DNA of 64,000 bases from Podospora anserina (GCA_017654855.1 CM030336.1:3348001-3412000); one strand, 5' to 3'; positions 18,680 to 57,748 are shown, counted from the first letter of the stretch. Translations and numbers: made by a program. Notes: generated from the letters alone by a model not told the origin.

Positions 18680-19179
18680 GACGGGAGTGGGGGACTAGCA
18701 GGCTGGGGGTTGTCGACCACGAGCAATTCAGCAGGGCAATTCAAAATCAAACATATGCTGTCAAGAAATTCTCGATGAGATACTGTTGTCGTAAACATGG
18801 ATCGTGTGAAACTCAGTCAAAATAACTCGAAAATCAAAGTTGGAGCCAGTGTTTCATGACGTTGAGCCAATCAACGGGCGGGGAGGAACGGTAGCAATAA
18901 TATGAGGATGCACGGGAGGTAAGGGCAGGGGACTGGAAGCACGGGCGCGAACCTGCAGCAGTGCAGCCCAATGGTGCTGTGCCACAGCCACGGCCGGCGA
19001 GATGGTCCACGAGTCTTGTGCAGTCCATGTCGCAGAGTCCTCTTTTCCGCGCATCCACGAGTGTCACGACATCTCCAGGAGCATTCTCTGTAGCGACTTC
19101 TGGCCACCACAATACTCGTTAAGAAAAACATGGGTGACGCAACAAAAGACTGTCGTCTCTTGAGCCACGAGACTTGAAA

Positions 19180-22100: not shown

Positions 22101-24218
22101 CAGGAATACCGCAGCCTGAACCATTGTGAATTAGTGAGGCAACTTGCATTCAAGGCCAACTCCAACCTCTTGGCTACCTGCGGCCTCAAATCAATCCGGA
22201 TTTGGAACATTCGGACTGGCGAGCTGCTTCAAACATTCCCGGCTCCTCGAAAGTGCGTTGGTCTCTGGTTTGATGAAGATCACCTGGTCGCTGTTTCCAG
22301 CAAGAACGAAATATGGTCCTGGGATATTGAAAATGAGGGATCAGCAAGCAAAAGGCCCATGGTCAGAGTAAATGATTCTCATAACACGGACTGTGAGGCC
22401 ATTCGTCAAGTCCCAGCCGCCGTATCCGTTGGCATAGCACACAAGATGCTGGCTGTTGCATACAGCGGTAAGCCCATAGTTCTTTGGTACCTCCAGGATG
22501 ACCAGTTCTACGGCTACTGTGGCAAGAAGCTTGTCGATGGCGAAACTGCAGCGCACCCCATTCAAGCCTTACAGTTCAATCCCAATCCGAATATTGAACT
22601 TCTCGCAGCATCGTACCTCGACGGGGATCTTGTCATCATTGATCCTTTCAGTGACCACGAAATCGAGAGGAAACGGGCCAGTTGCCACACACTGAGTGCG
22701 AGTGCAGATGGACGACTTCTTGCTGGCGGTGGTGGAGGGGGGGTCATTCAAATTTTCGAGTTCGACACACTCAAGCTTTTGTACAAGGTTCGGACATCTG
22801 ATCTCTGGATCAAAAGCCTCGCTTTCAGCCTAGATGGCAAGAATCTGGCTGATCTGCGAGGCTCACAGTGTAATGTGTGGATGCCCCCAGTCCTCCTTGC
22901 CGGTTCAATGGAAGACGACGTCAGCGTGGATACATCAAACACCTTCAACGACACACCACAAATTGAACAACGGGCCAAGATTGAATGTGTTGCGATCACA
23001 TCAGACGGCGTCATTTGTGGCAAAGACGATGGCTCGGTTACGTTCCATGATATACGAGGTGAAAAACTGCCAGAAACACTCTATTCGCACAAGGCCGCTG
23101 TTCAGATCTTGTCGTGGGTTGAATTGGCTCGAACGATCTTGAGCGTCTGCGTCTCAAACCGAGTCTTGGCGTGGTCTTTGGGGGACATGAAGTCTGTTGC
23201 AGGACATCAATGCTTGTTAGACATCAGGCCCGATTATGGCGGCAATACCATCACGCATATTCTTGCTGGCTATCCCTCGAAGAAACTTATCCTCTCAACA
23301 AGGACCACTGATCATCTGTGGGACATGGAGATCACCGCCGAGAAATCACACAGGACATACGACTCTGAAAGCCGGACACGAATATGGGTACAGCAACCAG
23401 CGTCATCCGAGCATGTTGTTTGTGTCAGATCAACAAGTGTCGACGTATATCCCTGGAATGCTTGGTCTGCCATGCCCGTCCTGAGGATCGCGCTGGGGAT
23501 TACTGTTGAGGGCTTGCAGCTCAAAAGCAGACCTCTATTTTATGGAGTCAAAGGAACACACATGCTGATAGAGCTCGAGGAGATTGATGGATCGGCGGAT
23601 ACGAAACTGATTCTGGCCTTTGATCTGTCTCGAGAAGGCCTATCCATGCCAGAGACTCCAAGGAAATTGATGGCAGCTCCCGCCCCAGCATTGTCATCGT
23701 CCGCTGCTTCAGCACAGGATCACCTTACCCAGATTCCAACTGTCACAGTCAGCCCAACTCCTTGCCTGATTCATCCCACTGAAGCGCCCAGCGGGATTAT
23801 CGCATCCTATCCTGAAGAAATCATCCGCAGAATAGCACACGTAATTGGAATTCAGGGCCACGGAAACCGCAGCAGGCTAGTGTTTTTGGATTCCAACTCC
23901 TGGGTTTGTTCGACGAGCCTCCCAGGAAACGACACGGCACCACGACAGCGAGAGACCCACGACGCGAAAAGCCAATCCTTGTCATGTACCAGGCATTTTT
24001 TCATTCCGTATGATTGGTTATCGGGAGTGCGGCATATGATTGGTGGTGTTGCTAGGGGACAAGACGTGGTTTTTGCAAAGGACGGTGATGTGGCGATTGT
24101 GAAGGGAGGGTTTGACTTTGAGGAAAGGGTTGATGTTTCTGCGGCGTCACCGGCTTCGGGTAGTCATGGAGGGAATAGTGGTGTGAGGGCGGGTTTGCTG
24201 AGGGTGCCAACAACGTGA
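19180..24218 (+). CDS. Fungal NLR-like protein: SesB-like alpha/beta hydrolase, NACHT, degenerate WD40
   Basis: VLVHGLGG, GHSMGG and FLGTPHRGS. Intron ~20192-20250 joins to the P-loop GKPATGKT (~20455) and VLDALDEC in frame with ORF 20604-24218. The C-terminus is WD-like. ATG 19180 is followed by a GTGAGT intron. Confidence 0.9.
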
Positions 24219-26354
24219 TCTCCATACGTCCAAGGAAATGATGCCACAGTGTGTATCCAATATTTGACAGAAATAGGCAATCAGGGAGCTAATTATAACC
24301 TGGCGGTGGATATTTCTAGCGCGGACTTGTGTCGACATGGCCAGACCGAAGTAGTAGGTACATAGTAGAGGGGCGGAACTAGCTCCGCTGTCCCATTAGT
24401 GTGTCAGGTCTCTCGGTATTATGTCTCGAGTAAGGTGGCTATAACTACAAATCTGTTACTAACTAGATGCTGCCCGCACTTATGGATTTATCTTTGATAG
24501 GTGTTGGCGAGTAGATAATGTGGTAAAAGGAAGCGATTTGTATTGTAGGAACTCTTTGCGGCAGATTAGTATTGCTGGTATGGATGATGAATATGAATCG
24601 TAGTGCTGAGATCGGTGACCTTGGTTGAGGATCTGTTGACGTCAGGCCAAAGCGCAGAATCAAAACCCTGCCTGCAGTGAGTGATGATGCTAGATAACGG
24701 TGACAGCAACGAGTGTTGTGGTTAAACACTCACCATCCCGGCAACTGGCAATTGGCGGGTTCATCTTCTCTCGATGTAGTGAGTGTATTATGGCAACGCC
24801 GGCACAGCCCTCATCCCTAGAAGGCTGCTGCCTTGACCGACGCCTTTCAAAGCAGTGGGATCAGTCACCGGTCGAAGGATAGGATATGATGCAATAATAA
24901 CGCTCGGCCTGGAAAGCCGTTTCTTGGTGTCTACTGGTCAGATGATGATTCAAGCGGAGCGATGTTTGTGTGAGTGGCTTGAGCAAAGATTTAGTGTGTG
25001 CACTTGCAGAGGGTTTATATATTAGGTCAACCATGTAGCCCAATAAGAAAAGACGCGCTGATGCACATGACCCTTGGCGCAATGGTCAGCTTCTTGCATT
25101 TCATATGGACCACTCCCTTTGGGGGAGAGTGGGTAAATGACTGGTGCGAACCTCAGGTCCAATCCCTGAACGTGAAGTTTTGCTTTTTTATTATTATTCA
25201 ATTTTTGTTTAATTCTTGTGTTCCTGCCCTGGCAACGCTTACTTGTATATTCTAACCCACAATAATGCAAGGAGCTTATAATTAGATAACTGAGCACGTT
25301 CTTGTGTTTCGCAACTTTACGGCATCATCAGTCCTTCAAAAACAAGTTGTGTAGGTGGTGGTGCAGTCTTTTGGTACCGTGCCAAGAGATAATCAGCAGG
25401 AGTGGGCGGGACGGGCCGTAGCAGGGTGGCTTGGCAGCCCACTTTTCACATCAACATTGCAATGAGGCTGCAGACTACCCATCTGCCTCCACTGCGCGAC
25501 GGACACCACAAAAAGAAATAGAAAGTGTGGGAGATATGATAGGTATTGAAATAATCTATGGGAAATGAGGGACATGGTGAGCCTAGAAATACATGGTGGG
25601 CTCAAAGCTAGAGATGTGAGCAAAGGCAATCAAGCACAGGCAAAGGAGGCAAGGCACAGCCTGTCAAAGGCGCAAAGCCAACAAAGCAATAAAAGTCAAC
25701 AGAAAGTACATTATGGGTGCCATTTTATCACGGCGCACCACAGCCATTTTCTGTTCAAGAAGCGACCCAATACCTCAGCTGGCTCTCAAGTTGCACCAGA
25801 TATCGGCAGCTAATCGGACCACCATCTCCAGCATAGCAGTCTAGGAGGTTTGGAAGGTACAGCAGTGTCATGGTGATGGTCATGGCCATCTCATCTGTAT
25901 GCAATCATCTTCCAACTTACCTGGAGCTCCTAGCTGTCCATCCAAGCCACAACTCGAGGTAATATATCTCACAAGTTAATAAGCAAGTCAAGCCTGCCAT
26001 ATATTTACCTGATCCCAGATATTATCGAGTCTTATCCCGCTCAATGTAGTGATATTTGTCCCGGTGGTGACGTTGTTGTTTGTGCAAGCCCTAAATCTCA
26101 CCCTTATCACTCCGGGAAAACTTGGTGAGGTCAGCTAACTTAATAAAGTAAGGGAAATCTAACTAGGAGCAGGATTGACTTAACTTGGCTCGTTGCCTGT
26201 ACTGGGTATCAAGCTTCCATTGATTACCTATTGTTTACGCACCCGGTCTAACATTATTGATTGTGAGAGCAGCGTTTACAGGATGCAGTATTTTATCCGC
26301 AAATGCCTTTATTATCGTTTACTAGCCGATGATTTATTTTAGGAGCAGGGTTTT

Positions 26355-26859
26355 AAGGGAGTAATGGGTAGAATACACGAGGTGGCTCTTCTCCGTGCAG
26401 AGGTCTCTTCGCTACGCAAGGCCAATGAGGAGCTTAGTAAGAGACGGAGAGCCAAAAATACACGTGTGCGGCTTGGAGGGTCACTTCCTATACAAGAGGC
26501 ACAGGATCGACTGGATCAGAAGGCTGTAGGTGAGCAGGTAATCCAGGAAAATCAACAAAGTGGTGGTGATGCAGGGGAGTCTCGTACCAAGATTCGGTGC
26601 TGTGGTATGTGCGGCAAGCCTGGCCATAATGCACGCACGTGCAAGGAGGCTGCAGAATCGTCTGATTCATCTATTTCTAGTTCAGTTATCGTTGTTTCCT
26701 AGTGTTGTGGTTATATAATTGAGGATAGTTATGGTGGGGTGGTGGAAAGTGTGTCACTCGCTTATCTGTGTCACTCGCTTATCTGTGTCACTCGCTTATC
26801 TGTGTCACTCGCTTATCTATGTCACTCGCTTATCTGTGTCACTCGCTTATCACGCACGT
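26355..26859 (+). mobile_element. 3' fragment of a Fot1/pogo transposon with an expanded terminal repeat
   Basis: The ORF ends in a CCHC motif (CGMCGKPGHNARTC) and is homologous to 28945-29270. It ends ...ACGT|TA. Six tandem 17-mers tgtgtcactcgcttatc at 26750-26851. Confidence 0.88.
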
Positions 26860-27124
26860 TATCTCTTATCTCTTTATCGTATATTGGCCTCTGTTACGAT
26901 AAGTATAGCGCTAGCGTTTTAAGTATCCCACTCAGTACATTTGGAACTTCGCTTAATTCCCTATCTCCACTTCGCGTAATAATAATAAGAACTATAACCA
27001 CTCAAGTCGCTAATCAGCACTGTAACACCATATATAAAAGAGAAACCAATAAACTCCTATATACGCTTACGCTCTCTCTCCGGTACTTAAGTAACGCGAA
27101 GTTATATTCGATTATTTTATAATA

Positions 27125-29359
27125 ACGTATATTATAAGCGAGTCGTACATATAAGCGAGTCGTACAGTCTCTACCACGACGCGTCTTCCTTACACCTAAC
27201 ATTAATTTTTCCACAACCCAACATGCCTCCTACTTTAAAGGAAGCTAGGATACTTTTAGCCCTTGAGGCTCTCCAAAAGGACGAAAAATTAAGCCTCCGA
27301 GCTATAGCTAAGCTTTACAACGTACCACCTATAACTCTCTCTAACCGACGCGCCGGCCGGCCTGCACGACGCGATACTACGCCCAGATCGAAGAAGCTTA
27401 CTTAATCCGAAGAGGAGGCTATTATTCACTATATTATTGAGCTATCTACGCGAGCTTTTCCACCAAGGTTACGTGGTGTGGAAGATATGGCTAACTAACT
27501 GCTGCGCGTACGCGACGCGCCCCCTATTGGTAAGCTCTAGGCATATAACTTCGTTAAACGTTAACTATAGTTCCGTACGCGTTTTACGTGTAGATACGAT
27601 TATTAGAGAGCTAAGTGCGAGGATCCGAAAGTTATTGCCGAGTAGTTTACGTTTGTACGGAATATTAAAGTTAAGTATAGTATTATAAATAACGATATTT
27701 ATAATTTTGACGAGATTAGGTTTATAATAAGTATTATTTTCGTAAGTATAGTGGTTATAACTTTGGACGGCTTTAATAAAGTAAAATTAGTTTAGCTTAG
27801 TAACCGTAAATGGGTAACGGTAATCTAGGGAGTTAATACCTTCGGTTAAGCTATCCCGCCCTTTATTATTTTAGCCGCATAGTATTACCTTGCTAACTAG
27901 TATACCGAGTGTAATTTACCGTTTATTTAGTGTATTATAATTACCGATAATAGTTGGATTACTAATCCGGTAGGTTTAGATTGGATTAAGTACTTCGACT
28001 ATTATATAGCGTCCCGTACGAAGGGCAAATATTAATTATTGATCCTCGATAGCTACGAAAGCCACTACTTAACTGAATTCGAGCGCTACTATTAGTAAAA
28101 TAATATTATTACGCTCTGTATACCTCCACACTCCTCCCACCTCCTCCAGCCACTCGATATTGGCTGCTTTGGGCCGCTAAAATAGGCGTACTGTCACGGA
28201 CCTGATATAAGTGGGGAGCGCGGGGCGCGACCGTCTAACCACTGGAACGGAAAAGTAGGGAAGTCGGATTATTATTAGTGCTAAGGGTAATAATTACGAT
28301 TATTATTAGCCTTCGATAAACGACGAGTGATAATCGACATTATTACTGGTGATAATTGTAATAAACCGGTCTATATATACGGAGGAACTAGCTAGTGTAG
28401 ATAGATAGTTCCGCAGTATGCAATTCAAGCTTGTATTTACGGCATTTTGTATTTATATCGAGATATCTTATTGTGCACTGTTTAGCTGCACCGAACCGAT
28501 TGTTAGAAGTTACCTTTAACCCGTATCCCTTTTAGAGGTTCTGTATAGGGGTTTATTACACGTACGGCCGCTAGATCGAGGGCTTGATGCGCATGTATAT
28601 TAACTACGTAAGTAAGCTCGAGTTTCTTTGTGCCTTCCGCGAGGCTTTCTTCGCCTTTATAACGGAGAAGAATATATAGGGTAGCTTTATAGGTGCTGGC
28701 CTTGTACTATACGATCCAGAGAGGGTACTTTCTAAGCTAGATATAAAGCTTCGTACGCCAATACCCCTATCCTTAAGGCCGGGCACGGCACTCCTTTGGG
28801 TATTCTAAACACCATAAAACCCCCGAGAAGCTAACTCACACTTAACGCTCATTAAGACTCGCATTACTAACCATTAAAATAGCTCCCCGACTTTAATATT
28901 AGGTGCTATAGATCAATTTACTAAGGGTACGATGGCTGTAATGCACCAAGTGGCCCTCTTACAGGCAGAGGTCTTTTCGCTCCGTAAGGCTAATGAGGCA
29001 TTAAGTAAGCGCCGGAGAGCTAAAAAAACACGTGTACGGCTCGGAGGATCACTTACTGTGCAAGATGCACAGGATCTACTAGACTAGAAGGCCGTGGGTG
29101 GGGAGGTAGTGGAAGAAATATAGCTGGATGGCGGTAGTGCAGGGGGGGCTCGTACGACGGTTCGGTGCTGTGGTGTGTGCGGCAAGCCTGGCTATAACGC
29201 GCGCACTTGCTAGGAGGCTGGGGAATTATTTGATTCAGCCGTTTCTAATATAATTGTAGTTGCTTCCTAATGTTATTGCGGTATAATTGAGGATAGTTGT
29301 TGTAGGGTGGTGGAGACTGTACGACTCGCTTATATGTACGACTCGCTTATAATATACGT
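27125..29359 (+). mobile_element. Full-length RIP-mutated Fot1/pogo DNA transposon with ~50-bp TIRs and TA TSD, interrupted by a solo LTR
   Basis: TIR ACGTATATTATAAGCGAGTCGTACATATAAGCGAGTCGTACAGTCTC at both ends, TA at 27123 and 29360. Transposase runs from ATG 27223 to TAA ~29270 with YNFDE, LILD..ESH, PHSSHLLQPLD and a C-terminal CCHC. About 1.86 kb without the insert. Confidence 0.95.
28192..28560 (+). repeat. Solo LTR (369 bp) with perfect 5-bp TSD CGTAC
   Basis: TGTCAC...TTACA termini, CGTAC at 28187-28191 and 28561-28565, and the family core tctatatatacggaggaact. Confidence 0.95.
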
Positions 29360-29429
29360 TACGTTAAATATCTAAAAAGTTATACTTTCTAATCCTTTTT
29401 TCTAAAAACCTAAAAATATAAGCTCGATA

Positions 29430-29625
29430 TACCGAAGTACCTATCTTTTTTACCGCCCGTTTCATTTTCGATTTTTATTTTCTGTCGGCGCTTATATACT
29501 TTAGGTTCATTGGATGATAGAGGGGTGTGAATGTAGAAGATAGGGAGAGAAATCTTCCTCAGTTTTTGGCAGTATATCTTCCGAAATCTGCGTCGGATTT
29601 CCATGGAAATGATAGTCTGGATGTT
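29430..29625. repeat. Unclassified dispersed repeat, copy 2
   Basis: Aligns by eye with 12795-12985. Confidence 0.75.
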
Positions 29626-31399
29626 CATGCACTATTGCAAAGCAAAGGCAGTAGCAAAAATATAGATAAAGGGAAAAGGCGCAAAGCAAAAGGTGGCACA
29701 AGGTGCTCCGGCTTTAACGTCCTTATTGAAGGGTGGTGTTAAGAAGGCGACAAAGTAATACACTAAGAATAAGAAGGAGTGGAGGAAGCTCGTCCAGAAG
29801 GTTAAAGACGAGATTGCGAATGCCCTCAACTGAGATGGCACGGCATATTGCTAGTGGTTTGATCAAGGCCAATAGGCTGTTGGGGGCCTATGCAGGGATA
29901 TGCTAAGGATTGGTAACAATATCTGAGCGTATCTCTGACAAGGTGTTGGAAACAACAAGCTTATCTGTAACATAGGCAGAAGACTGGTTTGTGGATAATA
30001 CTTTACTGTACGGAGAAGTTGCGCACGAAGCGAAAGAGGGGGAAATGAAATATAATAGGTGTCACGGCGGTTGCACCGTGACCGTCGTTGATCCACTGAT
30101 AGAGCTTGGCACGTGCAGAGCACGGGCCAATGTGACTAGAAAGATTTTGCATCTCGCTGCCGCGAGACCTGTTTGTAGCTCTTCGAGCTACGTCTTGACA
30201 ATAGAGCCTGCCCGTACCTGACGGAATAGAGCCCAGACTGTAGCTTAGCTGAATACTACTGTCATTAACCTGTCAACCTGTGCTACCCGTGATAATAGGA
30301 CTGGAAAGGGTGGGTGTAGCAGGCGTTAGTTGCCTCATGGTAGCCTTATACAATATATTGTATAGGTCTGTTATAATGGACCGTTAGAATAGTGTATTGA
30401 AACGGTAAACATGAAAGTGGAGACATAACTGCTAGCTCAGAGGTTTCTGGTATCTATGTCCTCGTAATGATGGTTGTAGTAAGATCAGCATATTTGGACC
30501 CTTCATTAGCAATGTAAAGCTCTCTCGAAGATGGCTAATGTCATGAACAAGTAACTGAAAAGGCTCAACTGCCGCCGGTGCATCAGAAAATCCCTTATAA
30601 TACTAGGCGTCTCTGTGAAGACTGCCCCGAGAGGGACTTCGGTCAGTGGCCACGACGGCTTTTATGACTTCGGAAGGTGGTAGGGCTTTCTCGGGTTGGG
30701 CGATGAGGTTTTCCATCCATTGTGACAGCCTACAGGAGAAGATGGTCGCGTTGGAGGTGGTCAAAACTGCCACCGAGCTGGCAAGTGGTGATACAAGTAA
30801 GAGAATCAGTGAGAGGTGGGCTACGACGAATAAAGTTATGGTCTTAGTTAAACTATATTGTGTAGAAAATCCAGGGAGAAGTGAATATGGGGAAATAATA
30901 ACTAGACAGAGAACAAGAGAGTTCTGGAAGCTCAAATATGGGATAAGCCCGCCTCTTTAACGTTTCTTTAGACCGTATCGTGGAACTTTTAGCAGCTATC
31001 AAAGACACTGAGCGATAGTTAAGCGACACTGTAAAAGAAGGCGGTTTTATGGAGATGTTTGTGTGATTGTGACTCTAATTCTCTGACTACGCGTCATTAC
31101 ACTTTGTGTGCCTGGACTTTGCAGGTTGATAACCACCACCATCTTATTTGGGTCCGTAGTGGGACTTCAAGGCTGTAATAAAACATTGAAGTGACGGAGA
31201 GAGGAAAAGAAAACAGGTCCGTTAAGTGGGAGCGGACTCCCATATATACATGTGGAAAAGGGCACCTTGCCGGACCACCGGCCTCTGGAAAAGCCATGTG
31301 GAAATTGAAACCACCTCCTTAGACACCTCATCTTGCCCTGTCCTTCAACCCTTCAAATAACACTAGGCCCTAGGCCCATAACAGTACGGTACCACTTAG

Positions 31400-32469
31400 C
31401 CACCAATCCTTCATGGTTTGTGAATTCTGTTGTTAGCCCGGAGATCATATGGAACAATCCCGGCGATTTCCCCAACACAGGAAACGTCGGGAACATACTC
31501 ATTCATGGTTGACTTCCCCTGAAATTTCTGACCGGTCGGGGTCGTCCGTTCCCATACGTGGTATATTGTGCTTGGGTACCAATCCCCCTTATCGACCTGT
31601 GTGTCATCATCGTTGCTATATCTGAGCAGTTCATAGTGGCTATGATTGATTCTCCCGTCCCCAAGCAGCTTCCACGTTGTGAGAACGATGCAGATCTGCT
31701 TGGTCTACCTCGGACCCCAAGCCGGGTGCCTGGGATTCGTGCCTGGGGTGGGTGCTATTGCTCAGTGAGAAGTCTGTGAAACAGCGAGAGCAACCCATGC
31801 TATCTATACATTCAGTGTACGGCGAGCAGGCAGATGGGTAGTAGGTATGTCTGCATGATACTTACATAGCTCCTTGGTAAGCACTAGCCTTGCAGTGGCA
31901 GCCGAACTCGTGGCTTAGGAGACATACCAGTGTCTTGTCAAAATCCGCGAATGGCGATTGGTATCCCTGGAGGTATTCACAGCCTTGAGATTTTCAACCT
32001 CCGCTCCAACAAATGGAAACTGCGCATTCCACGAATGGTGATAGTAGATGGCGGTGAGCCCATGATATGTTTGATAAAGCCCACGAAATGTCTCCAGGCT
32101 GATGGGATGCACGTTCGTGCCACAGTCACAACTTCCTAGTCCAGTATTGGAAGTCTTCGGCGGGATGATCAGAAAATCTTTTTGCTTCATCATGAGTGAT
32201 TTGCGATTGATTCAACTGGTAGATCCGTCCTCGTAAAAGGCGAACTTGGTATCAGATATTGCACGTCCCCATGACGCCTGTGGGAACCGCCGTGACACGT
32301 CTGACACTATCTTGCTGAGCAATCCAGAATAGTCTGTTTCCGCTTGCTTTTTGCGCCATACTTCTCCAATCAAAATCAGGCTGGGACCAAGATATGAATA
32401 GTAGTAGAACGTCTTTTTGGGCAGGTCGCAGAGCGTTAGCTCTGGATAGGACACTGGCGTTGGAGGCAT
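31400..32469 (-). pseudogene. Degenerate hypothetical-protein gene (in-frame TGA and frameshift)
   Basis: ORFs 32212-32469 and 31915-32193 are in frame across one TGA. There is a GTATGT donor at ~31928. The downstream segment has CSRCFTDF and VLTTWKLLGDG in different frames. Confidence 0.45.
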
Positions 32470-32732
32470 GTCCTTTGTCCGTAGCTTGTGATACTATGGT
32501 GGTAAGATCCACATGTTGAATGCATTAGCTGTGATGAGGTTGAAACAGGATAGCCTTGATGCTCAAAAGCAGCAGAAGAACAAAGAGCTCATGGGGTGCG
32601 TGGTCTCGGGACTTAAATCCCCGGGACCTTCGAAGCTTGGAATTTTGATAGTACCGTGTGTAGATACCTAGCATGTGGGCTGGGGTTTAACTGGCGTCGC
32701 TGGCGTGGTGAAAGGTTTATTCCACAGTAAGG

Positions 32733-34685
32733 CTAGATAAGAATAAATTCCTGCTCCTCCCGCTTTCCAAGCCACTCGCCATCCATGATCCCCTTGGCGT
32801 AGCATGGTCCAACTAGCCGCCACCGAGCTCCATCAGCTGAACCACCGGCCTCATACGAGGGGATTGCTCGCAAAACAAGAGGTACTGCCAAGCCAGGTAC
32901 CACAACGACCACATCACCAGCAGCCATCTTCTCATCCCCAACACCCAAATAGCCTCTTGAAGCCCTGAAAAAAGCCATTGCGCTGGTTTGCATAAGAAAG
33001 TCTTGGAAGCCCTGCCGCTCCACAGAGATTTCTTCAGGTTCCCTCTCACTTGCTGAAGCTTGCGCCTGTTCCAGCAGCGGCCAGTGCGGCACATCCACAT
33101 CACGCTTCAACGTGCCATAACCAGGCGCCATACCCCAAGACAAAGCCGAGTCAACAGCTTCCGACAGAGTTCCACCACCGACATATGCCTCTTCAACCAC
33201 GTCTCCATCAGGCTGAGGGAACACGAACCGCGCCAACGACCTTATCCACGGCCCAAAGATTGGCTGCCAAAACTCAGTCTTGGAAGTGTAATCACCCCAC
33301 TGCAATGGCCGCCTCATCGAAGGATAAATCCCAACAACCACATCAACCTTCACTCCCCACACCGACAGAGTTTGCGCCACCTTGTTGAGAGAAAACCGTG
33401 GCTTTTTGCCCGATGATTTCCCTCCCCCTGCGTCATACACCTCCGTTGTGCGATAAGGAACAGAGTACACAAACCGATAAAAGTTCGGCACCCAGCTCTT
33501 GAGCCCTTTATACTGCCCCGCTGAACAAAACAACAGCACATCCAGCTCCTTTGTCGTCTCGATGATCAAGGTCGCCACATCCATGTAGACATCCTCTGTT
33601 GGCAGCTCATAATCTACCCTCACAGAATTGAAGATATCGCCGTCTTTCTCCCCATAAATATCCCTCGCTATGTTCATCATAGCATAAACCTTGTCCACGG
33701 GCCATCGAGCATCAAGACTATTAGTCTTGACCATCAAATCCAACAACGACAGCCCCCCCTTCCCATGTTGCCGGAGCAGGGTTAGTTCCTGCAGGTACGC
33801 AATATCAACATTTAGCGGACTCGGACTAGGGATTTTATTCAACCCCAACTCCAACATATGCGAATGAAACACCCCGTTCGCCACCTCCAAAGCTTCAAAC
33901 CAAAGCGCGTGGCCACCCATCCAGAACTCACGGGGTACATTCGGTGTGGAGGCTTCCTGATAAATCCAGGATCTCTTCCAGTAGCTCAACCGAGTCACAG
34001 CTTCGAGACAGGCACAGTCCACCTGGTTCACGATCTTTAACAGAGAAGTAGGCGAGATATCAGGTAGCTGGCTGTTCGCCCATGCAACGGCGACGCGTTG
34101 GTAGGTATCCATTGCGTGCCCTGTCGGGTAGGCAGGCCAGAGGTTCTCCGGGAAGGGGGCGTCAAGGGTAAGCTTGTGTTCCCTGACGGGACCTAACCAA
34201 ATGATGATTCGGGAGGCGGAGGCGTAGATCTGGGACATGATCTTTAGCTGGGCGGTCTTTTCTTTTTTGGCAATTTCTTCGTCGGCTTGGTTGATGCAGA
34301 TTGCGTCGATCCAGATGTAGCCTACGTTGGCTGCCCGGCGGGAGGTTGCTCCGTTGTGAGATGGGACTAGGTCAGGACGGGCCTGGCGGAGGAAGGCGTA
34401 GAGGTTTGACTGGTGGATGGGGAAGGTTTCGGGAGTGGAGTCAGGGGAGGCGATGTTGAGTGTTTGAGGGGGGCGAAGCCTTTCTTTTTCGTCACCCCAA
34501 GTGTAGGAGAGGGCGGTGTAGGGAGGCGGGGGACCGGAAAGATCATGGTGGGTGAGTGTTGCTGCGATTGACCCGTCTGGAGCGGGGTGGTCTGGTTGAA
34601 GTTTTTCCGAGCATGGCCACTCTAGACGGAGGAGGCGGATGTGGCCCTGTTCAAGAGGGGCATGCTTGTATGTGAATTCCGTCAT
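32733..34685 (-). CDS. HET-domain protein (HET-6-like)
   Basis: IRLLRL, YTALSYTWGD, IWIDAICINQ, MSQIYASA...IWLG, YWKRSWIYQE, DKVYA and LVGPCY..GIMDGE. Likely ATG at 34685. Confidence 0.92.
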   Translation of the reverse strand: MTEFTYKHAPLEQGHIRLLRLEWPCSEKLQPDHPAPDGSIAATLTHHDLSGPPPPYTALSYTWGDEKERLRPPQTLNIASPDSTPETFPIHQSNLYAFLRQARPDLVPSHNGATSRRAANVGYIWIDAICINQADEEIAKKEKTAQLKIMSQIYASASRIIIWLGPVREHKLTLDAPFPENLWPAYPTGHAMDTYQRVAVAWANSQLPDISPTSLLKIVNQVDCACLEAVTRLSYWKRSWIYQEASTPNVPREFWMGGHALWFEALEVANGVFHSHMLELGLNKIPSPSPLNVDIAYLQELTLLRQHGKGGLSLLDLMVKTNSLDARWPVDKVYAMMNIARDIYGEKDGDIFNSVRVDYELPTEDVYMDVATLIIETTKELDVLLFCSAGQYKGLKSWVPNFYRFVYSVPYRTTEVYDAGGGKSSGKKPRFSLNKVAQTLSVWGVKVDVVVGIYPSMRRPLQWGDYTSKTEFWQPIFGPWIRSLARFVFPQPDGDVVEEAYVGGGTLSEAVDSALSWGMAPGYGTLKRDVDVPHWPLLEQAQASASEREPEEISVERQGFQDFLMQTSAMAFFRASRGYLGVGDEKMAAGDVVVVVPGLAVPLVLRAIPSYEAGGSADGARWRLVGPCYAKGIMDGEWLGKREEQEFILI

Positions 34686-34882
34686 CTTGTTTCTCTTTTG
34701 GCAGGTTGTGAGGAATAAGAACAACGCGGTCAAGTTGAGCTGAGGTATTAACGGTCGTCCTGAAGCCAGTGAGGCTCAGCAGGCTCAGGTTGAATGCTGA
34801 GCTGAAGGAGGAGTCCTTGGCATCGACTATCGTCAGCTGACATGCCAGGTGATATCAACCTTGCCTCAGAATTGTATCTTCC

Positions 34883-36292
34883 TCAAGCCAAACATTTCCG
34901 ATGAACGACTGACGGCCCCATCTCATCATACTCCTGACTTGATATGCACATATCCTTAAAGGTCGACAACGACGCGAGCACTGAACCTCCCACCCACGTC
35001 AGGTATTTCATCCCAGGCGAGGCTACAACTTTGACGGACATATATGACGGGGCCATTTCCACGATCTCCTTCTGCAGCCTATCTGCGAATCCAGAAAACA
35101 TCATGTTCCCACCAGCCAGGTAAATACTACCAAACAGTTCCTTTTGAATGCTGGAGTCGCATTTCATGATGGCATCACACACCAAAGCATGTATTCCCCT
35201 GCTTTCAAGACCTAGTACCGATGGCCGAAACATAGCTTCAGGGCCTCGAAAACGCTCGTTGGTCAGGTTGATTACCTGCCCATCAGGAAGCTCGTGCGAG
35301 ATTTCATGAAGCTGAAACGTAGGACCTGACTCCCTTTCCACCCACAATCGTGTCTCGTTCTCAAAGTCAAACGCAGTGTAACAACGCAAATGTTTGAGGT
35401 TCTCGACAACCTCGTGCTCCCTCGTGGTGGGGACGAAGTTGTGGCCGCTTTCTCTCAGGAGCTTGATCATGTAATCGGTAATGTGACGTCCACCGAGGTC
35501 AAGTCTGCTTATCGAATCTCGGACTGGGACTCCAAGCCGTTCATGGCCACCATGTACTAATGGAACTGCGTGGGTCACGCTATCCCCAGAGTTAACCACG
35601 AGCCCCGTAGTCCTTCCCATGCCGTAGAGTGCCAGCGATGGGTTGAGTGCCACATGGAAGGCAGGAACGTTGAATGTTTCAAAGATGATTTGTGTCATTT
35701 TTTCCCTGGAAGAACAGTCAGTTTTTCCGTCAGGTTAATTCGGTCAGATAGTGGCAGCTTACTTGCTGGTATCGGGAGTGAAAAGAGCATGTTCCATCAA
35801 AATGGGGTGCTCGTGGGGCTCAACACGCAGTTCGTGGTAGAGTGCATGATGCCATATTGCTTCAACGTCCTGCCAGTCTGTGATGACGCCTTGTTCTATC
35901 GGGTAGCAAAGTTCGAGGATCCCTCTTTTCGACTGAGCTTCGTCACCAACATAGTTTTCCTTGCCGCAAACATCAGCGGAGGTCCTGTAAAGATGGATGG
36001 TCAGCCGGAACACCCTGACAGCCCGGGGCGCAGACGCACTTATGGTCCTTTGGTCTCCCGACAACAGACGCTGGTGCAGATGTCAACAGTTCCTCTGTTG
36101 CAGTATTGGACCGTTTGAGATACATACGGAATACGGTGGTTGGGTAGTCATCACCAGCGAAGCCAGCCTTCATGATTAAAGATCTATACGTTGCACATCA
36201 TAATCAGTCAGTCTTTCCTGCCACGTCAAAGGCCTTGCCATGAGGATCACTCACCCAGTATCAATCACAATAGCCGGGGCTGTGTCCTCCAT
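34883..36292 (-). CDS. Divergent actin paralog (5 exons, 389 aa by my splice model)
   Basis: [61 protein letters not shown] and EYDE.GPS.VHRKC. Introns at 36184-36254, 36071-36127, 35985-36039 and 35706-35762 give 1170 nt with no internal stop. Confidence 0.92.
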
Positions 36293-36679
36293 ATCGATGT
36301 AAAAGAAGGATGGAAACACCTGATGACAATGCTTAACTTGGTTGTCGCTGTAGTTGCTGAGTGGAAATGTTGAGAGGATTGCCACTAAACCAACAAGCAC
36401 ATTCTGGGAGGGGTAAGCACCTTCGGCCAACAAGATTGGCCGAAGGGATGGTCTTGATGCTCCACAATATGCTGAGATGTTGGGACCTTGTGCGGGGCTG
36501 TGCCACCATGTAATGAAAAAGGTTATGCAGGCTTAATGATACTTCGATACAACAATTACAGCGGAAACAAAACATCAATCATCCCTCAATCCAGCTTTCA
36601 TCCAACCTCTGTCTATCAATAGTCACGATACACCTCCCACTCGCCTCGACCCCCGGCGTTCCCACCGTTATCCGCCCAC

Positions 36680-38381: not shown

Positions 38382-39797
38382 TCAGTTTGCTTTGTTCACC
38401 GATATGCAGCCAAGTACACTTACCTTGCCTGCTCTTCTTTCGTCGCTTATCCGCGGCAGTGGCTCAAGTTTTGAAGCCTTTTTGTCTCTGAAATATGAGC
38501 GCACCATCGGCATGCATTCAGGGTCCACATCCCAAGCACCCTGGGCCTCTTCTCGAAGACTGTGGAAGAAAGTAAAATCCAGCGAGTGAGGCAAAAACCC
38601 AGCTTTGAGATCAGGGATAAACTGGTCCCAGCCTATATGTTGCCGTTTGGCATCATCCCACCCTCGCACGCAACAGGTTTCCAAGACAATGGTTCTGAGT
38701 GATTGCTTGTGTCGAAGGAGGAGGTCGAGCATTGTTTCGTAGCCAAACCCCATATTTGTAAGGTGAACAGTGTGAAGTCTTTCCCAATGATGATCATAGG
38801 GAATGAGGTCATAAAGCCACGCAAATTCATACTTAACACCCAGTGTCAAAGATTGCAAATTCGGCATTGTTTTAATGATGTCGTGGACGAAATTGATGCG
38901 AGGACTCTTGACTACCGAACATTTGCGTGGATCATCTACCCATGGCCGTTCATTGCCGAGCAAGATGCCAAAGTGAGTGAGTACCGAGAGCTGCGTGCTC
39001 AGAGAATTTTGTAAGGGGTAGATCGGGGGAAATGGCCAAGGCGGGAGCGCAGACGGCATATCGGAACGCTCAAAATTTTCATCTGTCGCTAGGAGGCTGA
39101 GGAAGCCCACCTGAATAGAGATGAGACGTGGGGGTGACCCGCCAGTTGCCTGGACTGCTTCTAAGATGGCTCGCAAATGTCGAGCTGTCCCCTCCACATG
39201 TGACACGCCTGTCATATCCAGGTTGAGGCATTGGTATGCCGGTATCCTCAGTATGGGTTTCGTGGCGTTGGGCTCCCTGTTCCGGTGCCTGTTACTGTCT
39301 GGATAATCGCCCGCAACGATGATCTCCCGGAGATTGGGGAATTTGGGGACCACCTCTCGGAGAAAGTCAAAGTCTTCGCCCACTGCCAAAATTTGAACCT
39401 GATCGCGATGTATGCTGTCGACAACATCTCTCATTGCCGCGATCCAGGCTTCATCGACCGGCGGACGGTGGATGTCGGCGAGATGAAAGATATCTGGAAG
39501 CTCATCATCGTATGGATCATATGGAATATCGTTGTTGTTAGACTGGTATCTCCTCATGATTCGAGTGTTGTATGTCAGCGACTGAACATGCTCGGCGCGA
39601 TAATCGTTGACGATGCTTCGTAAGACGTCAAAGTCCTCATGGTGCATGCAAAACTTGATGTGTCGAAACGCGTGTCGATCTGCCGCTGCTTTCAGGACGC
39701 GGCATGATGCACGAATCGAGGACAGAGTGTTGTGAGAGTCCAAGTTGCCGCATATATTGTCCATGATCTCTGACGGGAGCCTTATAATAAGTGGCAT
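38382..39797 (-). CDS. F-box-like protein with an LRR-like C-terminal region
   Basis: N-terminal LPSEIMDNICGNL...L.SIRASCR. Repeated FPNLREI / MPNLQSLTL / LHTVHL / LRTIVL motifs. Likely ATG at 39797. Confidence 0.75.
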   Translation of the reverse strand: MPLIIRLPSEIMDNICGNLDSHNTLSSIRASCRVLKAAADRHAFRHIKFCMHHEDFDVLRSIVNDYRAEHVQSLTYNTRIMRRYQSNNNDIPYDPYDDELPDIFHLADIHRPPVDEAWIAAMRDVVDSIHRDQVQILAVGEDFDFLREVVPKFPNLREIIVAGDYPDSNRHRNREPNATKPILRIPAYQCLNLDMTGVSHVEGTARHLRAILEAVQATGGSPPRLISIQVGFLSLLATDENFERSDMPSALPPWPFPPIYPLQNSLSTQLSVLTHFGILLGNERPWVDDPRKCSVVKSPRINFVHDIIKTMPNLQSLTLGVKYEFAWLYDLIPYDHHWERLHTVHLTNMGFGYETMLDLLLRHKQSLRTIVLETCCVRGWDDAKRQHIGWDQFIPDLKAGFLPHSLDFTFFHSLREEAQGAWDVDPECMPMVRSYFRDKKASKLEPLPRISDERRAGKVSVLGCISVNKAN

Positions 39798-39964: not shown

Positions 39965-42308
39965 ATGCAAACGCTTGCAACTGATCATGGCAGCTCTGAC
40001 GGCGACTCAGTTTCCCAAGTGGGTGCCAGGGCAGCCAAAGCAAAGAGACGACACCAAACCAAAGATAGCCAACCTTGGGTGAGTTTCCAATTTCCACACA
40101 GGTATCTCAGATCTCTAATAATGAATTACCTAGCCACACTTTCGACTCCCTCCATCATTTGTCCGTCCAGAATTCCACGAGTCCGAGAATTCGGACTCTG
40201 CAGACGACTTGCCGAAACGCCATCGGATAGCACATCGAGGGCCTCCAGCCGAAACCAAAGAGAACCACGACACAACGCCGTCAAGCTCGATACTACGCCA
40301 TCAGCTGGAAGCGCAAAGTCATCCCCTCGCCAAACCACATTCCTGCCCGCACTGCGTTGCAATAGCCGTTGATTTGCGCAGGCAACTAGCCCGCGTCACG
40401 TTCCGTGGGGATGCTTGGGCCCGAGAAGGGTGGACGACCGCCAATAGAAAGTTTCCCTTGACTGTCGACCAAGCAAGAGCCGCCAGCCACAAAGGATGCG
40501 CGTTCTACAGATACCTCCTCGCTGATGACGACCCCGCTTATGCGATACGAAACGATGTATGGGGTTCCTCTCCTGGCAGGATTCCTTTCGAGATAGTGAT
40601 GCAAAATGGCCGATGCAGACTCTACCCTGGACGACGGAAAGGAGAGTTTCGAGAGTTCTCCCTGTACACCATCCCAGGACAAAAGGCTTTGCACCCTTTT
40701 CTTGGGTATCAGCTCCCACCGAACCTTGTTCCCAACTCCCAACTCAGCTTCACCCGTGTTCGAGGCTGGCTAAACGAATGCCTCCGGAACCACAAACTAT
40801 GCAACGCATTCCAGCGAGCTTACATGCCCAAAAGGCTCATCGAAGTGACCACTACCGCAGCTTCGGGGAGTCTTTGCGCTCGATTGGTCACAAACCCCAC
40901 GCCAGGTCGTTATGCCGCGCTGAGCTACTGCTGGGGCGGTGACCAAAAGTCCAAGACCATCAGAAGTGTTTTGGGTACCTACGAGAAAGAAATCCTAATG
41001 GGTATCCTACCCCAAACGCTTCAGGATGCGTTGACAGTAACACACGGTATCGGCCTCCGCTACCTCTGGGTAGACGCCATGGCAATCGTTCAAGACGACG
41101 ATGAGGACAGAGACGAGCAGATATCCCAGATGCACCGCATCTACCTCGGCGCCTCCTTCACCATCGTCGCAGCAAAGGCAGTGACCAGCCTTGACGGTTT
41201 TCTCGCCCCAAGAGCAAAGTACCAGCCCTCCATCATCTCCGCCCGGCTGGATGACAACGTCTTTGGGGAGATCCTTGCCTTTCCAAAGCACGATACCCTC
41301 AGTGACTATAACCTCTTTACTCGCGGTTGGACATTTCAGGAGACGCAGCTCTCGACAAGGATACTGGCGTATGGCATGCATGAATTGGTGTACTCGTGTT
41401 TAGAGGCCAGGCATCGGGATGGTGGATACGAGCATGTGTTCGATCCGCCACCGGCTTCAATCTACCTGCGCGACACGAGCGACGATCCTGCAGCACAAAT
41501 GGTGGAGAATCTCGACCCGGGAAATCAAAATCTGGGGCGGGATGAACACCCGTTTGGTTGGGAGACAATCGTCTTCAAGTATAGCCAGCGGTTTCTCACT
41601 GATGGGTTGGATAAGCTCCCTGCTGTCTCGGCTATTGCGGAGGAGTACTCCCTCACCAAGCCAGTCACGGAATATTATGCTGGGCTATGGAAGGAAGACT
41701 TTCTGCATCAGTGTCTTTGGCAAGTAAGCTTCAATACCGCGGTGAGGCCGAAGGGGGTGTATAGAGCTCCGTCTTGGTCGTGGGCTTCGGTTGATGGCGC
41801 GGTGCATGGATTTACCAAGGAGCGCCTCAATCTGAAGTTTTCTTGTTCGCTGCTTCATGTTGAGACGACGCTGGTGTCGACGAGGAATCGTTTTGGGAGG
41901 GTGGGTAACGGTTTTATGCGGCTTCGTGGCAGGATGCGCAAGGTTTTGTGGTCGAGCAGTGGAATTCGGGCCGGGCATGCTGGACGCGCAGCGGAGGATG
42001 CTGCTAGCAGGTGGCCGGATGAACCGTACGGGTTTGATAACCGCCTGTCGTTGACCGTGGATTTTGTTGGTGAGTGGCCGAAGGATTCGGAGGTGGAATT
42101 TTGGTGTCTTGAAATTTGCACCTTCTTCCGGGATGGGTTTGATCGTGGTCAGGGGCTGTTGCTTGACAAGGTTGATGGGAGAGAGCATCCTGATCTCTCG
42201 GACGAAATCTTTCGCCGTGTGGGCCAGGCATACTTTGGCGCGGATGTGGCCGAGCCGTACTGGTTTGATGATGGTGTTTCGGAGTGGAAGGAGATTGTCG
42301 TTGTGTGA
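39965..42308 (+). CDS. HET-domain protein (TOL-like), intron 40079-40133
   Basis: WL.EC...H..C, PKRLIEV, YAALSYCWGG, LPQTLQDA, YLWVDAMAIVQ, TRGWTFQE, DKLPAVSAIA and RAPSWSWAS. Phase-0 GTGAGT...TAG intron. Confidence 0.92.
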
Positions 42309-57551: not shown

Positions 57552-57748
57552 CAGTAATAACCCTCTGTGCGTAGATGGCAAACGGAGTAAGAGATGGAGC
57601 ATGGGGGACCATATTGTGAAGAGGATCGTGTGATGTTGGTAGAGCCCGCGGCCCTGAAGCAGGAAGCTGCAGCCACATGTACCGAGACAACCGAACCGTT
57701 CTTTACTTTTTTCATTATAGGTAGTTACCAGCATGTAGGTGCCTCCCA

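What the first reader, a model, noticed from the sequence alone, without database searches (positions are those of the whole stretch)
34883..36292. Intact but catalytically eroded second actin embedded among HET-domain genes: candidate actin decoy or pseudo-actin
Seen: a cleanly spliced 389-aa actin-fold gene without stops or obvious RIP. Nearly invariant actin residues are changed. Phosphate loop 1 DNGSGMCK reads DTGSLIMK (G15L). Loop 2 DSGDG reads NSGDS (D154N, G158S). Q137 is N (IQA to LNP) and H73 is Q (PIEQG). The hydrophobic D-loop is replaced by KDHKTSADVCG, there are two small insertions, and the C-terminus is KCLA. Known: these residues mediate ATP binding and hydrolysis and filament contacts. 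The first three introns (at G13, P32 and codon ~42) fall where, as I recall, conventional filamentous-ascomycete actin genes have introns, which would suggest duplication of act1 rather than a canonical ARP. Inference: a non-polymerising paralog sitting co-oriented about 200 bp upstream of a HET cell-death gene could be a decoy or guardee for actin-targeting toxins, or an incompatibility partner.
Basis: partly seen in the sequence, partly recalled or inferred. Interest (0 to 1): 0.78.

Follow-up and report, generated by a model that had tools for sequence, protein, structure and literature searches.

The report
Expressed dead-actin paralogue beside HET gene
This is a real, transcribed and correctly spliced extra copy of the actin gene, found only in a few dung-fungus relatives, that has lost the residues actin needs to burn ATP and form filaments; it sits directly upstream of a cell-death (HET) gene, but a working link between the two is still unproven.

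Summary
Window 36292-34883 (minus strand) holds a 5-exon, 389-aa gene with a full actin fold. It is the orthologue of the public record PODANS_5_7660. RNA-derived contigs from 4 of 4 runs (4 studies) splice all four predicted introns exactly; intron 2 is also retained in frame.

It derives from conventional Pezizomycotina actin, not from an ARP class. Its first three intron sites coincide with sites where misannotated conventional actin models break.

Relatives were found only in the Podospora anserina species complex, in Cercophora samala (69% identity), and as a milder form in C. newfieldiana.

It keeps 187 of 291 actin-invariant positions. G15, H73, Q137, D154 and G158 are changed, and 10 of 11 D-loop residues are changed.

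Over the long term it is constrained: the frame and introns are kept, and sites evolve at unequal rates. It is nevertheless truncated in 2 of 7 Podospora species.

A HET gene starts 197 bp downstream. This adjacency appears to be kept in C. samala, and both genes are truncated in P. pseudocomata.

The decoy/partner idea remains circumstantial; I put it at about 0.25.

The parts
36255..36292 (-). Exon 1 of the actin-like gene (ATG at 36292; codons 1-13, split in G13)
   Evidence: splice joint 36183|36255 seen in 4 of 4 RNA-type runs
36184..36254 (-). Intron 1 (71 nt, GT..AG, phase 2 in codon 13)
36128..36183 (-). Exon 2 (phosphate loop 1 with L15, to the first base of codon 32)
36071..36127 (-). 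Intron 2 (57 nt, phase 1). Both spliced out and retained; retention is in frame and adds 19 aa.
   Evidence: joint 36070|36128 in 4 of 4 runs, and a 117-nt contig running unbroken over 36041-36157 in 4 of 4 runs. Public models P0122, P0123 and P0124 retain it.
36040..36070 (-). Exon 3 (codons 32-42)
35985..36039 (-). Intron 3 (55 nt, phase 2 in codon 42)
35763..35984 (-). Exon 4 (altered D-loop, Q73, to codon 116)
35706..35762 (-). Intron 4 (57 nt, phase 2 in codon 116)
34883..35705 (-). Exon 5 (273 codons plus stop). Carries N137, N154, S158, both insertions and the C-terminus KCLA.
   Evidence: Pfam Actin E 2.2e-71. Identical to the P. anserina S mat+ record P0122 over this exon.
36293..36400 (-). 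5' untranslated region; the RNA contigs end between 36350 and 36400
   Evidence: table 8
34686..34882 (-). 197-bp spacer between the actin-like stop and the HET start, covered without a gap by RNA contigs
   Evidence: single contigs run from the HET gene through the spacer into spliced exons 5-3 in 4 of 4 runs. This does not prove a single transcript.
32733..34685 (-). HET-domain gene (650 aa, HET domain at residues 56-244, conserved C-terminal region). Orthologue of locus tag 5_7650.

Best explanation
The gene is a lineage-restricted pseudo-actin. It arose as a DNA-level duplicate of the conventional Pezizomycotina actin gene in an ancestor of Podospora and some Cercophora species. It is still transcribed, spliced and translatable, and it keeps the G-actin fold.

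Shown:
- Its identity, its expression and its origin from actin.
- Its narrow distribution.
- The residue changes.

Inferred:
- It has lost the catalytic water-activating residues (Q137N; D154N/E/Q) and two phosphate-loop glycines (G15L/A, G158S). It has also lost the methyl-histidine site (H73Q) and the hydrophobic D-loop, and it carries an insertion in the 165-172 loop on the barbed-end face.
- It therefore most likely works as a monomeric actin-shaped protein that neither hydrolyses ATP nor polymerises head to tail.
- It has been held under weak purifying selection since the Podospora/C. samala split, but it is dispensable: it is truncated in two species.

Most likely role (about 0.3): it is the sensed partner, or bait, of the HET-6-type cell-death protein encoded 197 bp downstream. 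In that reading the two genes form one module in which the state of an actin look-alike is read out as cell death.

The confidence given here (0.62) is for the pseudo-actin reading without the HET link.
For: Expression and gene model
- all four introns are spliced in 4 of 4 RNA-type runs from 4 studies.

Origin from actin
- 1814 hits; of the 120 best listed, only the P0001 cluster (95%) and P0002 (70%) stand out, and the rest are actins at 47-56%.
- 170 PDB sequences matched; all 60 shown are actin, and the best is a fungal actin, 8a5d_V, at 481.6 bits.
- AF2 model with pLDDT 91.5; TM 0.90 to G-actin; the top 50 fold matches are all actin.
- the paralogue clade has 100/100 support. It falls on the same side of a branch as the Pezizomycotina actins, but weakly (49/92).
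- misannotated conventional actin models diverge after G13 (P0024, P0040, P0028). Two others diverge after F31 with an Arg, as expected when a phase-1 GT donor is read through (P0023, P0033). These two and P0024 resume at I43. These are the same three sites as introns 1-3.

Residue erosion
- 187 of 291 positions invariant in four conventional actins are kept. The pocket keeps 14 of 23, the D-loop 1 of 11, the 165-172 loop 2 of 8.
- Catalytic positions differ even among orthologues: position 154 is N, E, Q or D, and H161 is R in P. comata.

Long-term constraint
- The frame and a near-equal length (389 vs 388 aa) are kept against C. samala. Genic DNA is only about 86% identical between these taxa (PMC10936905, passage read).
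- Sites changed on the stem were 3.1 times more likely to change again (Fisher p 9.5e-5).

Link to HET
- The C. samala orthologues carry consecutive accessions on one 337-kb contig.
- The spacer is covered by RNA.
- Both genes are truncated in P. pseudocomata.
Against: - No biochemical test was possible, so loss of ATP binding or of polymerisation rests on residue roles that I recall from the actin literature. As I recall, some nuclear ARPs with a bulky residue at position 15 still bind ATP.
- Many filament-contact segments are kept (241-247, 262-271), so capping or co-polymerisation is not excluded.
- Two of seven Podospora species carry truncated models: P0121 stops after residue 177, and P0124 is frameshifted.
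- Protein divergence within the complex is 4.4-8.2%, although the genomes are >98% identical (PMC10936905). That fits relaxed constraint or local introgression.
- Against the HET link:
  - HET genes are numerous in this genome region, so adjacency can arise by chance.
  - General synteny is also kept: the deaminase orthologue lies on the same C. samala contig.
  - P. bellae-mahoneyi has the actin-like gene truncated but the HET gene intact.
  - No close HET orthologue from C. newfieldiana appeared among the 120 listed hits.
Confidence: 0.62

Rival explanations
1. Guardee, decoy or incompatibility partner. The pseudo-actin is bait. It is modified or bound by an actin-targeting toxin or effector, or it differs between strains, and the adjacent HET protein detects this and triggers cell death.
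For: - 197-bp spacing on the same strand, with unbroken RNA cover.
- Adjacency is implied in C. samala by consecutive accessions.
- Both genes are truncated in P. pseudocomata.
- The strongly derived form co-occurs with this HET orthologue. The mild C. newfieldiana form has no close orthologue among the listed hits.
- Precedent: HET genes paired with an adjacent partner. The het-B pair Bh/Bp is one case, and 89 PII-like genes lie next to HET genes (PMC10890737, passages read).
- Residues R177, K50, E270 and T148, which I recall as bacterial toxin targets, are kept in the window protein.
Against: - No interaction or genetic data exist.
- The HET protein is conserved like an ordinary gene (87.7% to C. 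samala, 97.2-97.7% within the complex over its full length), and 14 DNA-type runs show no word loss. An active allorecognition locus in this species is therefore unlikely.
- The bait is lost in P. bellae-mahoneyi with the HET gene intact.
- Adjacency over such a short evolutionary distance is weak evidence.
Confidence: 0.25
2. A decaying duplicate without function. The gene is transcribed only because it still has a promoter, and it is on its way to loss.
For: - Truncated in 2 of 7 Podospora species.
- Catalytic positions vary among orthologues.
- Intron 2 is retained about as often as it is spliced.
- Within the complex, amino-acid divergence reaches 8.2%, while genomes are >98% identical (PMC10936905).
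- The window's own lineage has changed residues kept in actin and in the other orthologues: R68C, Y133H, G272R.
Against: - The open frame, the length and the predicted exon structure are kept against C. samala. At 14% or more neutral divergence over 1170 nt I estimate the chance of no stop at under 1e-3, before counting indels.
- Rates differ among sites, with odds ratio 3.1.
- 168 of 291 actin-invariant sites are untouched in both lineages.
Confidence: 0.2
3. A toxin-resistant back-up actin that still forms filaments, as NAP1 does in Chlamydomonas.
For: - NAP1 is a divergent second actin that resists latrunculin (PMC12444908, passage read).
- R210 (E in Podospora), D157 (E in C. samala) and Y69 (H in C. 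samala) are changed. I recall R210 and D157 as latrunculin contacts. Y69 is the position that the review names for NAP1.
Against: - The D-loop keeps 1 of 11 residues, and G15, Q137 and G158 are changed. NAP1-type actins keep polymerisation.
- Truncated in two species.
Confidence: 0.05
4. A self-resistance copy of the target, belonging to the nearby polyketide gene cluster.
For: A highly reducing PKS (57752-63651) and a P450 (54190-54873) lie in the window.
Against: - They are about 20 kb away, with unrelated genes in between.
- The PKS ends in KR-ACP with no NRPS module. As I recall, fungal cytochalasin synthases have one.
Confidence: 0.03
5. A member of a canonical ARP class. UniRef labels the C. 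samala orthologue 'Centractin'.
For: Only the automatic UniRef name. Identity to actin is about 55%, which as I recall is similar to that of Arp1.
Against: - No ARP appears among the 120 best database hits or among the 60 PDB sequences shown. The actin chain of the dynactin entry 5adx is listed, but none of its other chains is.
- Relatives were found in only three protein clusters.
- Intron sites are shared with actin.
Confidence: 0.02

Closest known systems
Conventional Pezizomycotina actin (act1 / actA type)
   Same: - Full-length Pfam Actin match and G-actin fold (TM 0.90).
- Best PDB hit is a fungal actin.
- Lineage-typical motifs are kept, such as ...PSVLGLES.G.
- Three 5' intron sites are shared.
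   Different: - Only 54-57% identity.
- 104 of 291 invariant positions are changed, including G15, H73, Q137, D154 and G158.
- The D-loop is replaced, and there are three insertion sites.
- Branch lengths are about ten-fold longer.
- Dispensable in two species.
Chlamydomonas NAP1 (divergent, latrunculin-resistant second actin; PMC12444908, passage read)
   Same: A divergent extra actin beside one conventional actin. Toxin-contact positions are altered.
   Different: NAP1 forms filaments and substitutes for actin. Here the polymerisation and catalytic residues are eroded, and no induction data exist.
Two-gene HET/partner systems: het-B (Bh/Bp) in P. anserina (PMC10890737). As I recall, also het-6/un-24 and pin-c/het-c in Neurospora.
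   Same: A HET-domain death gene tightly linked to a partner gene that is related to a core cellular protein. The pair is kept in a related species.
   Different: No polymorphism, balancing selection or incompatibility phenotype has been shown here. The partner is an actin paralogue, which I found described nowhere (searches).
Animal orphan actin-like proteins (for example 'actin-related protein T2' or 'actin-85C-like' clusters)
   Same: They rank among the nearest non-actin representatives. They are lineage-restricted actin derivatives at 40-48% identity.
   Different: They have an independent origin in animals, and their testis-specific roles are something I only recall. They have no link to death genes.
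Arp1 / centractin
   Same: Similar overall distance from actin (recalled). It is the automatic UniRef label of the C. samala orthologue.
   Different: It does not rank among the listed hits in any search. The distribution is narrow, and the intron sites are those of actin.

Membership tests
Actin family (Pfam PF00022, actin fold) | Full-length match to the Actin profile | tested here: met
   Exon 5 matches at E 2.2e-71 over profile positions 111-409. The orthologue P0001 aligns over residues 3-389 to a fungal actin.
Actin family (Pfam PF00022, actin fold) | Four-subdomain G-actin fold | tested here: met
   AF2 model of orthologue P0001 has pLDDT 91.5. Foldseek gives TM 0.86-0.92 and rmsd 1.5-2.8 A, and the top 50 are all actin.
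Conventional (polymerising, ATP-hydrolysing) actin | Invariant phosphate loops and catalytic residues (G15, Q137, D154, G158, H161); the residue roles are recalled | tested here: not met
   L15, N137, N154 and S158. H161 is kept here but is R in P. comata.
Conventional (polymerising, ATP-hydrolysing) actin | Hydrophobic D-loop 40-50 and an unbroken 165-172 loop | tested here: not met
   The D-loop keeps 1 of 11 residues. The 165-172 loop keeps 2 of 8 and carries a 4+2 aa insertion.
Conventional (polymerising, ATP-hydrolysing) actin | Polymerisation and ATPase activity | not testable with these tools
   Needs purified protein.
Canonical ARP classes (Arp1-Arp10) | Closer to an ARP class than to actin | tested here: not met
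   The 120 best of 1814 database hits and the 60 shown of 170 PDB sequences are actins. Ten of the 150 best representatives were looked up; the 5 with a descriptive name are actin or actin-like.
Canonical ARP classes (Arp1-Arp10) | Placement inside an ARP clade in a tree that holds ARPs | not tested
   No tool call returned an ARP sequence. The trees hold actins and orphan actin-likes only.
Canonical ARP classes (Arp1-Arp10) | Broad conservation across fungi and eukaryotes | tested here: not met
   In the profile search, only P0001 (826 bits), P0002 (797) and P0016 (736) score above single-domain actins at about 660 or less. None of the 80 metagenome loci exceeds 56% identity.
HET/partner two-gene death or allorecognition module | HET-domain gene immediately adjacent | tested here: met
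   197-bp spacer, same strand.
HET/partner two-gene death or allorecognition module | Pairing kept in other species | tested here: inconclusive
   C. samala orthologues are KAK0671572.1 and KAK0671573.1 on one contig. This is only one outgroup, and a close one. The neighbours of the C. newfieldiana paralogue were not seen.
HET/partner two-gene death or allorecognition module | Divergent alleles or balancing selection within the species | tested here: inconclusive
   14 DNA-type runs from 4 studies hold 100% of the sampled words. How many different strains they represent is unknown.
HET/partner two-gene death or allorecognition module | Cell death on interaction of the two products | not testable with these tools
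   Needs genetics.
Processed or dead pseudogene | Broken frame, no introns, or no transcription | tested here: not met
   In this window the frame is intact and four introns are spliced in RNA. The models in P. bellae-mahoneyi and P. pseudocomata are truncated.

The most novel reading that the evidence does not exclude
The pseudo-actin and the HET gene 197 bp downstream form a bait-and-executioner module. The actin look-alike is an expendable copy of a frequent toxin target. When a competitor's actin-directed toxin or effector modifies or sequesters it, or when a foreign allele arrives after hyphal fusion, the HET-6-type protein reads the change and kills the cell. This would be the first guard/decoy pair described in fungi that is built on a cytoskeletal protein.
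Probability: 0.2. Interest if true: 0.85.

Novelty: new variant of a known kind. Interest (0 to 1): 0.48.

Why it matters
As I recall, fungi normally keep a single, almost invariant actin gene. A transcribed duplicate that has shed the catalytic and polymerisation residues is therefore unusual. It still stayed open for the whole Podospora-Cercophora samala divergence. It offers a natural experiment on which actin surfaces matter apart from filaments.

Its tight coupling to a conserved, non-polymorphic HET gene gives a concrete and genetically tractable case in a model fungus. It could test whether HET-domain death proteins guard cellular targets, which is an open question in fungal immunity.

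If the link fails, the gene is still a documented case of an essential gene's duplicate decaying slowly in a fast-evolving, HET- and NLR-rich region.

Tried and rejected
- Complex prediction: HET residues 245-650 with the actin-like orthologue. The answer was no verdict (score 0.00; controls not run; my alignments were not used). This is no evidence either way.
- Foldseek of the HET model against the PDB: no match at E <= 0.001. The model is only moderate (pLDDT 75.7).
- Metagenome scan: the 80 loci kept are all uninterrupted actin matches at 51-56% identity. They gave no clade member and no intron information.
- Search of the 50%-identity representatives: dominated by fused or duplicated actin models and orphan actin-likes. 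It returned no ARP sequence and did not separate the clade.
- Profile search: its top ranks are taken by tandem or fused actin models.
- Whole genome: none is held, so the genome's own conventional actin gene and ARP genes could not be read.
- The look-up of sequencing runs: no holder is on record as RNA. The six runs marked 'RNA?' proved to be RNA-derived only through their splice joints.
- A joint at 34316|34495 (GT..CA, 20-nt side): rejected as cross-matching of other HET transcripts at the conserved HET motif.
- Literature:
  - No paper in the library mentions locus 5_7660 (the single hit is an unrelated string).
  - A search for actin intron positions found nothing.
  - Searches for fungal actin paralogues found nothing relevant.
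- Supplements were closed and were not requested. Expression and polymorphism tables of PMC6709928, PMC3689799, PMC13449251 and the Podospora population papers may hold values for 5_7650 and 5_7660.
- Self-resistance to the nearby PKS product was rejected on distance and on PKS architecture.

Full report
**What is there**

On the minus strand, window 36292-34883 holds a five-exon gene.
- Exons: 36292-36255, 36183-36128, 36070-36040, 35984-35763 and 35705-34883.
- Product: 1170 nt, 389 aa.
- Introns: four GT..AG introns of 71, 57, 55 and 57 nt, in codons 13 (phase 2), 32 (phase 1), 42 (phase 2) and 116 (phase 2).
- Exon 5 alone matches Pfam Actin at E 2.2e-71.
- The gene has 50% G+C and normal RIP dinucleotide indices (0.56 and 1.25). 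The repeats at 1-6000 give 1.5 and 0.1. The index thresholds are recalled.

**Expression**

No listed run is on record as RNA. I laid contigs from four runs of four different studies on 32600-36500.
- All four runs join 35705|35763, 35984|40, 36070|36128 and 36183|36255. The skipped pieces have CT..AC ends on the plus strand, which are exactly the four predicted introns.
- The contigs therefore derive from spliced RNA, and the gene model is confirmed.
- A 117-nt contig that runs unbroken over intron 2 is also present in 4 of 4 runs. Retention is in frame and adds 19 residues. The public models P0122, P0123 and P0124 retain it.
- The same long contigs run without a break from the HET gene, through the 197-bp spacer, into the spliced actin-like exons. 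There is no gap in transcription between the two genes. Contigs cannot prove a single transcript.

**Identity and distribution**

- Exon 5 is identical to the P. anserina S mat+ record PODANS_5_7660 (P0122). That 90% cluster has 10 members from the Podospora anserina species complex.
- Outside the complex, the only close relative is a C. samala protein (P0002) at 69.1% over the full length.
- All other hits among the 120 best listed (of 1814) are actins or unnamed proteins at 47-56%. Four of them carry JGI's automatic label 'actin-related protein'. Three of these (P0093, P0106, P0107) have actin length and about 54% identity. The fourth, P0003 (465 aa, 53%), is a partly duplicated actin model.
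- A profile of the clade scores P0001 at 826 bits, P0002 at 797 and a C. newfieldiana protein (P0016) at 736. Single-domain actins score about 660 or less, and fused or tandem actin models fill the higher ranks.
- P0016 shares derived states with the clade: changes at positions 137 and 154, T303N, Y306F, the ...GPEAMF... motif and an insertion at a nearby site in subdomain 4. It keeps the D-loop, G15, H73 and G158. It joins the clade with SH-aLRT 94 in the quick tree, but the relation is unresolved in the careful tree.
- None of 80 metagenome loci exceeds 56% identity.

**Actin, not ARP**

- Of 170 PDB sequences matched, the 60 shown are all conventional actins (457-482 bits). The best is a fungal actin, 8a5d_V.
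- The actin chain of the dynactin entry 5adx is listed, but none of its other chains is.
- The AF2 model of P0001 (pLDDT 91.5) superposes on G-actin at TM about 0.90, and the top 50 matches are all actin.
- In the careful tree the clade (100/100) lies on one side of a branch together with the Pezizomycotina actins, but support is weak (49/92).
- No ARP sequence could be obtained, so a tree with ARPs was not made.

**Intron evidence**

This evidence is indirect, because no conventional actin gene DNA was available.
- Misannotated conventional actin models in the database read into their introns.
- P0024, P0040 and P0028 diverge right after G13.
- P0023 and P0033 diverge right after F31 with an Arg. 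That is what read-through of a phase-1 GT donor gives.
- These two and P0024 return to actin at I43.
- These are the sites of introns 1-3, which supports a DNA-level duplication.
- Intron 4 could not be compared.

**Erosion of actin residues**

Residue roles are recalled from the actin literature.
- Of 291 positions invariant in four conventional actins, the window protein keeps 187, the C. samala protein 188 and P0016 240.
- Changed residues: G15L, H73Q, Q137N, D154N, G158S, R210E, E214H, T303N and Y306F.
- The D-loop keeps 1 of 11 residues.
- The 165-172 loop keeps 2 of 8 and carries a 4+2 aa insertion.
- Subdomain 4 has a 6-aa insertion.
- At the C-terminus, F375 becomes L and one extra A follows.
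- Catalytic positions are not even fixed among orthologues. Position 154 is N, E, Q or D. H161 is R in P. comata. D157 is E in C. samala.
- Kept: D11, S14, K18, G156, K213, G302, K336, R177, the 241-247 loop and most of 262-271.
- I infer an ATPase-dead protein that does not polymerise. ATP binding, capping and co-polymerisation are not excluded.

**Selection**

*Long term*
[quoted passage not shown] The complex species are >98% identical to one another (PMC10936905, passages read).
- Even at the minimum of 14% divergence, about 160-175 substitutions are expected over 1170 nt. About 4% of random changes create a stop. My own estimate for keeping the frame by chance is therefore below 1e-3, before counting indels. 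Lengths are in fact 389 and 388 aa.
- Sites changed on the clade's stem were 3.1 times more likely to change again (Fisher p 9.5e-5), and 168 of 291 invariant sites are untouched in both lineages.
- The protein is 31% diverged from C. samala. The neighbouring HET protein is 12% diverged and the deaminase 6%.
- My rough reading is dN/dS near 0.3, with a range of 0.2-0.8. This is an inference.

*Short term*
- Amino-acid identity to the other complex species is 95.6%, 95.6% and 91.8% for the three intact orthologues, and 95.5% and 93.5% over the aligned parts of the two truncated models. The neighbouring proteins are 91.9-99.1% identical. That is near or above what >98% DNA identity allows under neutrality.
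- PMC13449251 (passage read) reports introgression-rich regions on chromosome 5.
- P. bellae-mahoneyi's model stops after residue 177.
- P. pseudocomata's model shifts frame near residue 257.
- An assembly error is not excluded for either.

**The HET neighbour**

- The gene at 34685-32736 encodes 650 aa. The HET domain spans residues 56-244, and there is a conserved C-terminal region.
- Its C. samala orthologue (P0522, KAK0671573.1, 87.7%) lies on the same 337,391-bp contig as the actin-like orthologue (KAK0671572.1), with the next accession number. The deaminase orthologue (KAK0671577.1) follows. Adjacency and local synteny therefore seem to be kept.
- In P. pseudocomata the HET model stops at residue 551 and loses the C-terminal region. 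This is the same species whose actin-like gene is frameshifted.
- The HET gene is one of eight HET genes reported as up-regulated in a PaRid mutant (PMC6709928, passage read).
- No close orthologue from C. newfieldiana or other named taxa appears among the 120 hits listed. The next hits are at 44% and 35%.

**Surroundings**

- AT-rich RIP-type repeats at 1-13 kb.
- An NLR gene (lipase-like, NACHT and WD40 domains) at 19138-24215.
- The HET gene, then the actin-like gene.
- A Q/P-rich protein of no family.
- A weak F-box-like protein.
- A second HET gene.
- Then PAP2, a transporter, a P450 and a highly reducing PKS.

**Verdict**

The gene is an expressed pseudo-actin derived from actin itself and restricted to a small group of Sordariales. 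It is weakly constrained and dispensable.

The decoy or partner reading is attractive and has a precedent in the het-B pair Bh/Bp (PMC10890737). Here it rests only on linkage, unbroken RNA cover and one case of joint truncation. I put it at 0.2-0.3.

I found no paper on this gene.

Noticed in passing
window 36040-36292: The public P. anserina model of this gene (P0122, 393 aa) starts at Met17, retains intron 2 and uses another splice at intron 3. RNA contigs in 4 of 4 runs support exon 1 and the joints of the five-exon model, as annotated in P. comata and P. pseudopauciseta.
   Followed up: yes
window 19138-24215 (+): An NLR-type gene. A PGAP1-like alpha/beta hydrolase ORF is followed by a 1326-aa ORF with NPHP3_N/NACHT, a winged helix and WD40 repeats. 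A paper reports introgression around NLR genes on chromosome 5 (PMC13449251, passage).
   Followed up: no
window 1-13000: AT-rich block (GC 0.21-0.44) with strong RIP-type dinucleotide bias: TpA/ApT is 1.5 and (CpA+TpG)/(ApC+GpT) is 0.1 over 1-6000. No long ORFs.
   Followed up: partly
window 24500-32500: 8 kb without any ORF of 180 aa or more. GC is 0.42-0.48 and TpA/ApT is 1.11. Possibly old degraded repeats or gene relics directly downstream of the HET gene.
   Followed up: no
window 38385-39797 (-): A weak F-box-like protein (locus tag 5_7680). Across the whole set of complex species it is the most divergent of the neighbours compared (91.9-94.5% identity to the other Podospora species), and more divergent than the HET genes.
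   Followed up: partly
window 40134-42305 (+): The second HET gene (5_7690). The window's record is 569 aa from the first Met of the ORF, but the models in four sister species are 762 aa. An upstream exon is therefore probably missing from the short model.
   Followed up: no
window 54190-63651: A P450 fragment and a highly reducing polyketide synthase (AT, DH, methyltransferase, KR, ACP). The PKS runs off toward the window end. The KS part was not seen in the ORFs scanned and should lie upstream of 63651.
   Followed up: no
P0002 (C. samala orthologue), actin position 69: Tyr69 is His. This is the position at which a review reports the His substitution of the latrunculin-resistant Chlamydomonas NAP1 (PMC12444908). 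The Podospora orthologues keep Tyr.
   Followed up: no
window 17987-18676 (+): A deaminase with a strong Inv-AAD (AID/APOBEC-like) Pfam match, E 9.7e-52. Relatives annotate it as a riboflavin-pathway deaminase. It lies between a fructosamine-kinase-like ORF and the NLR gene.
   Followed up: no
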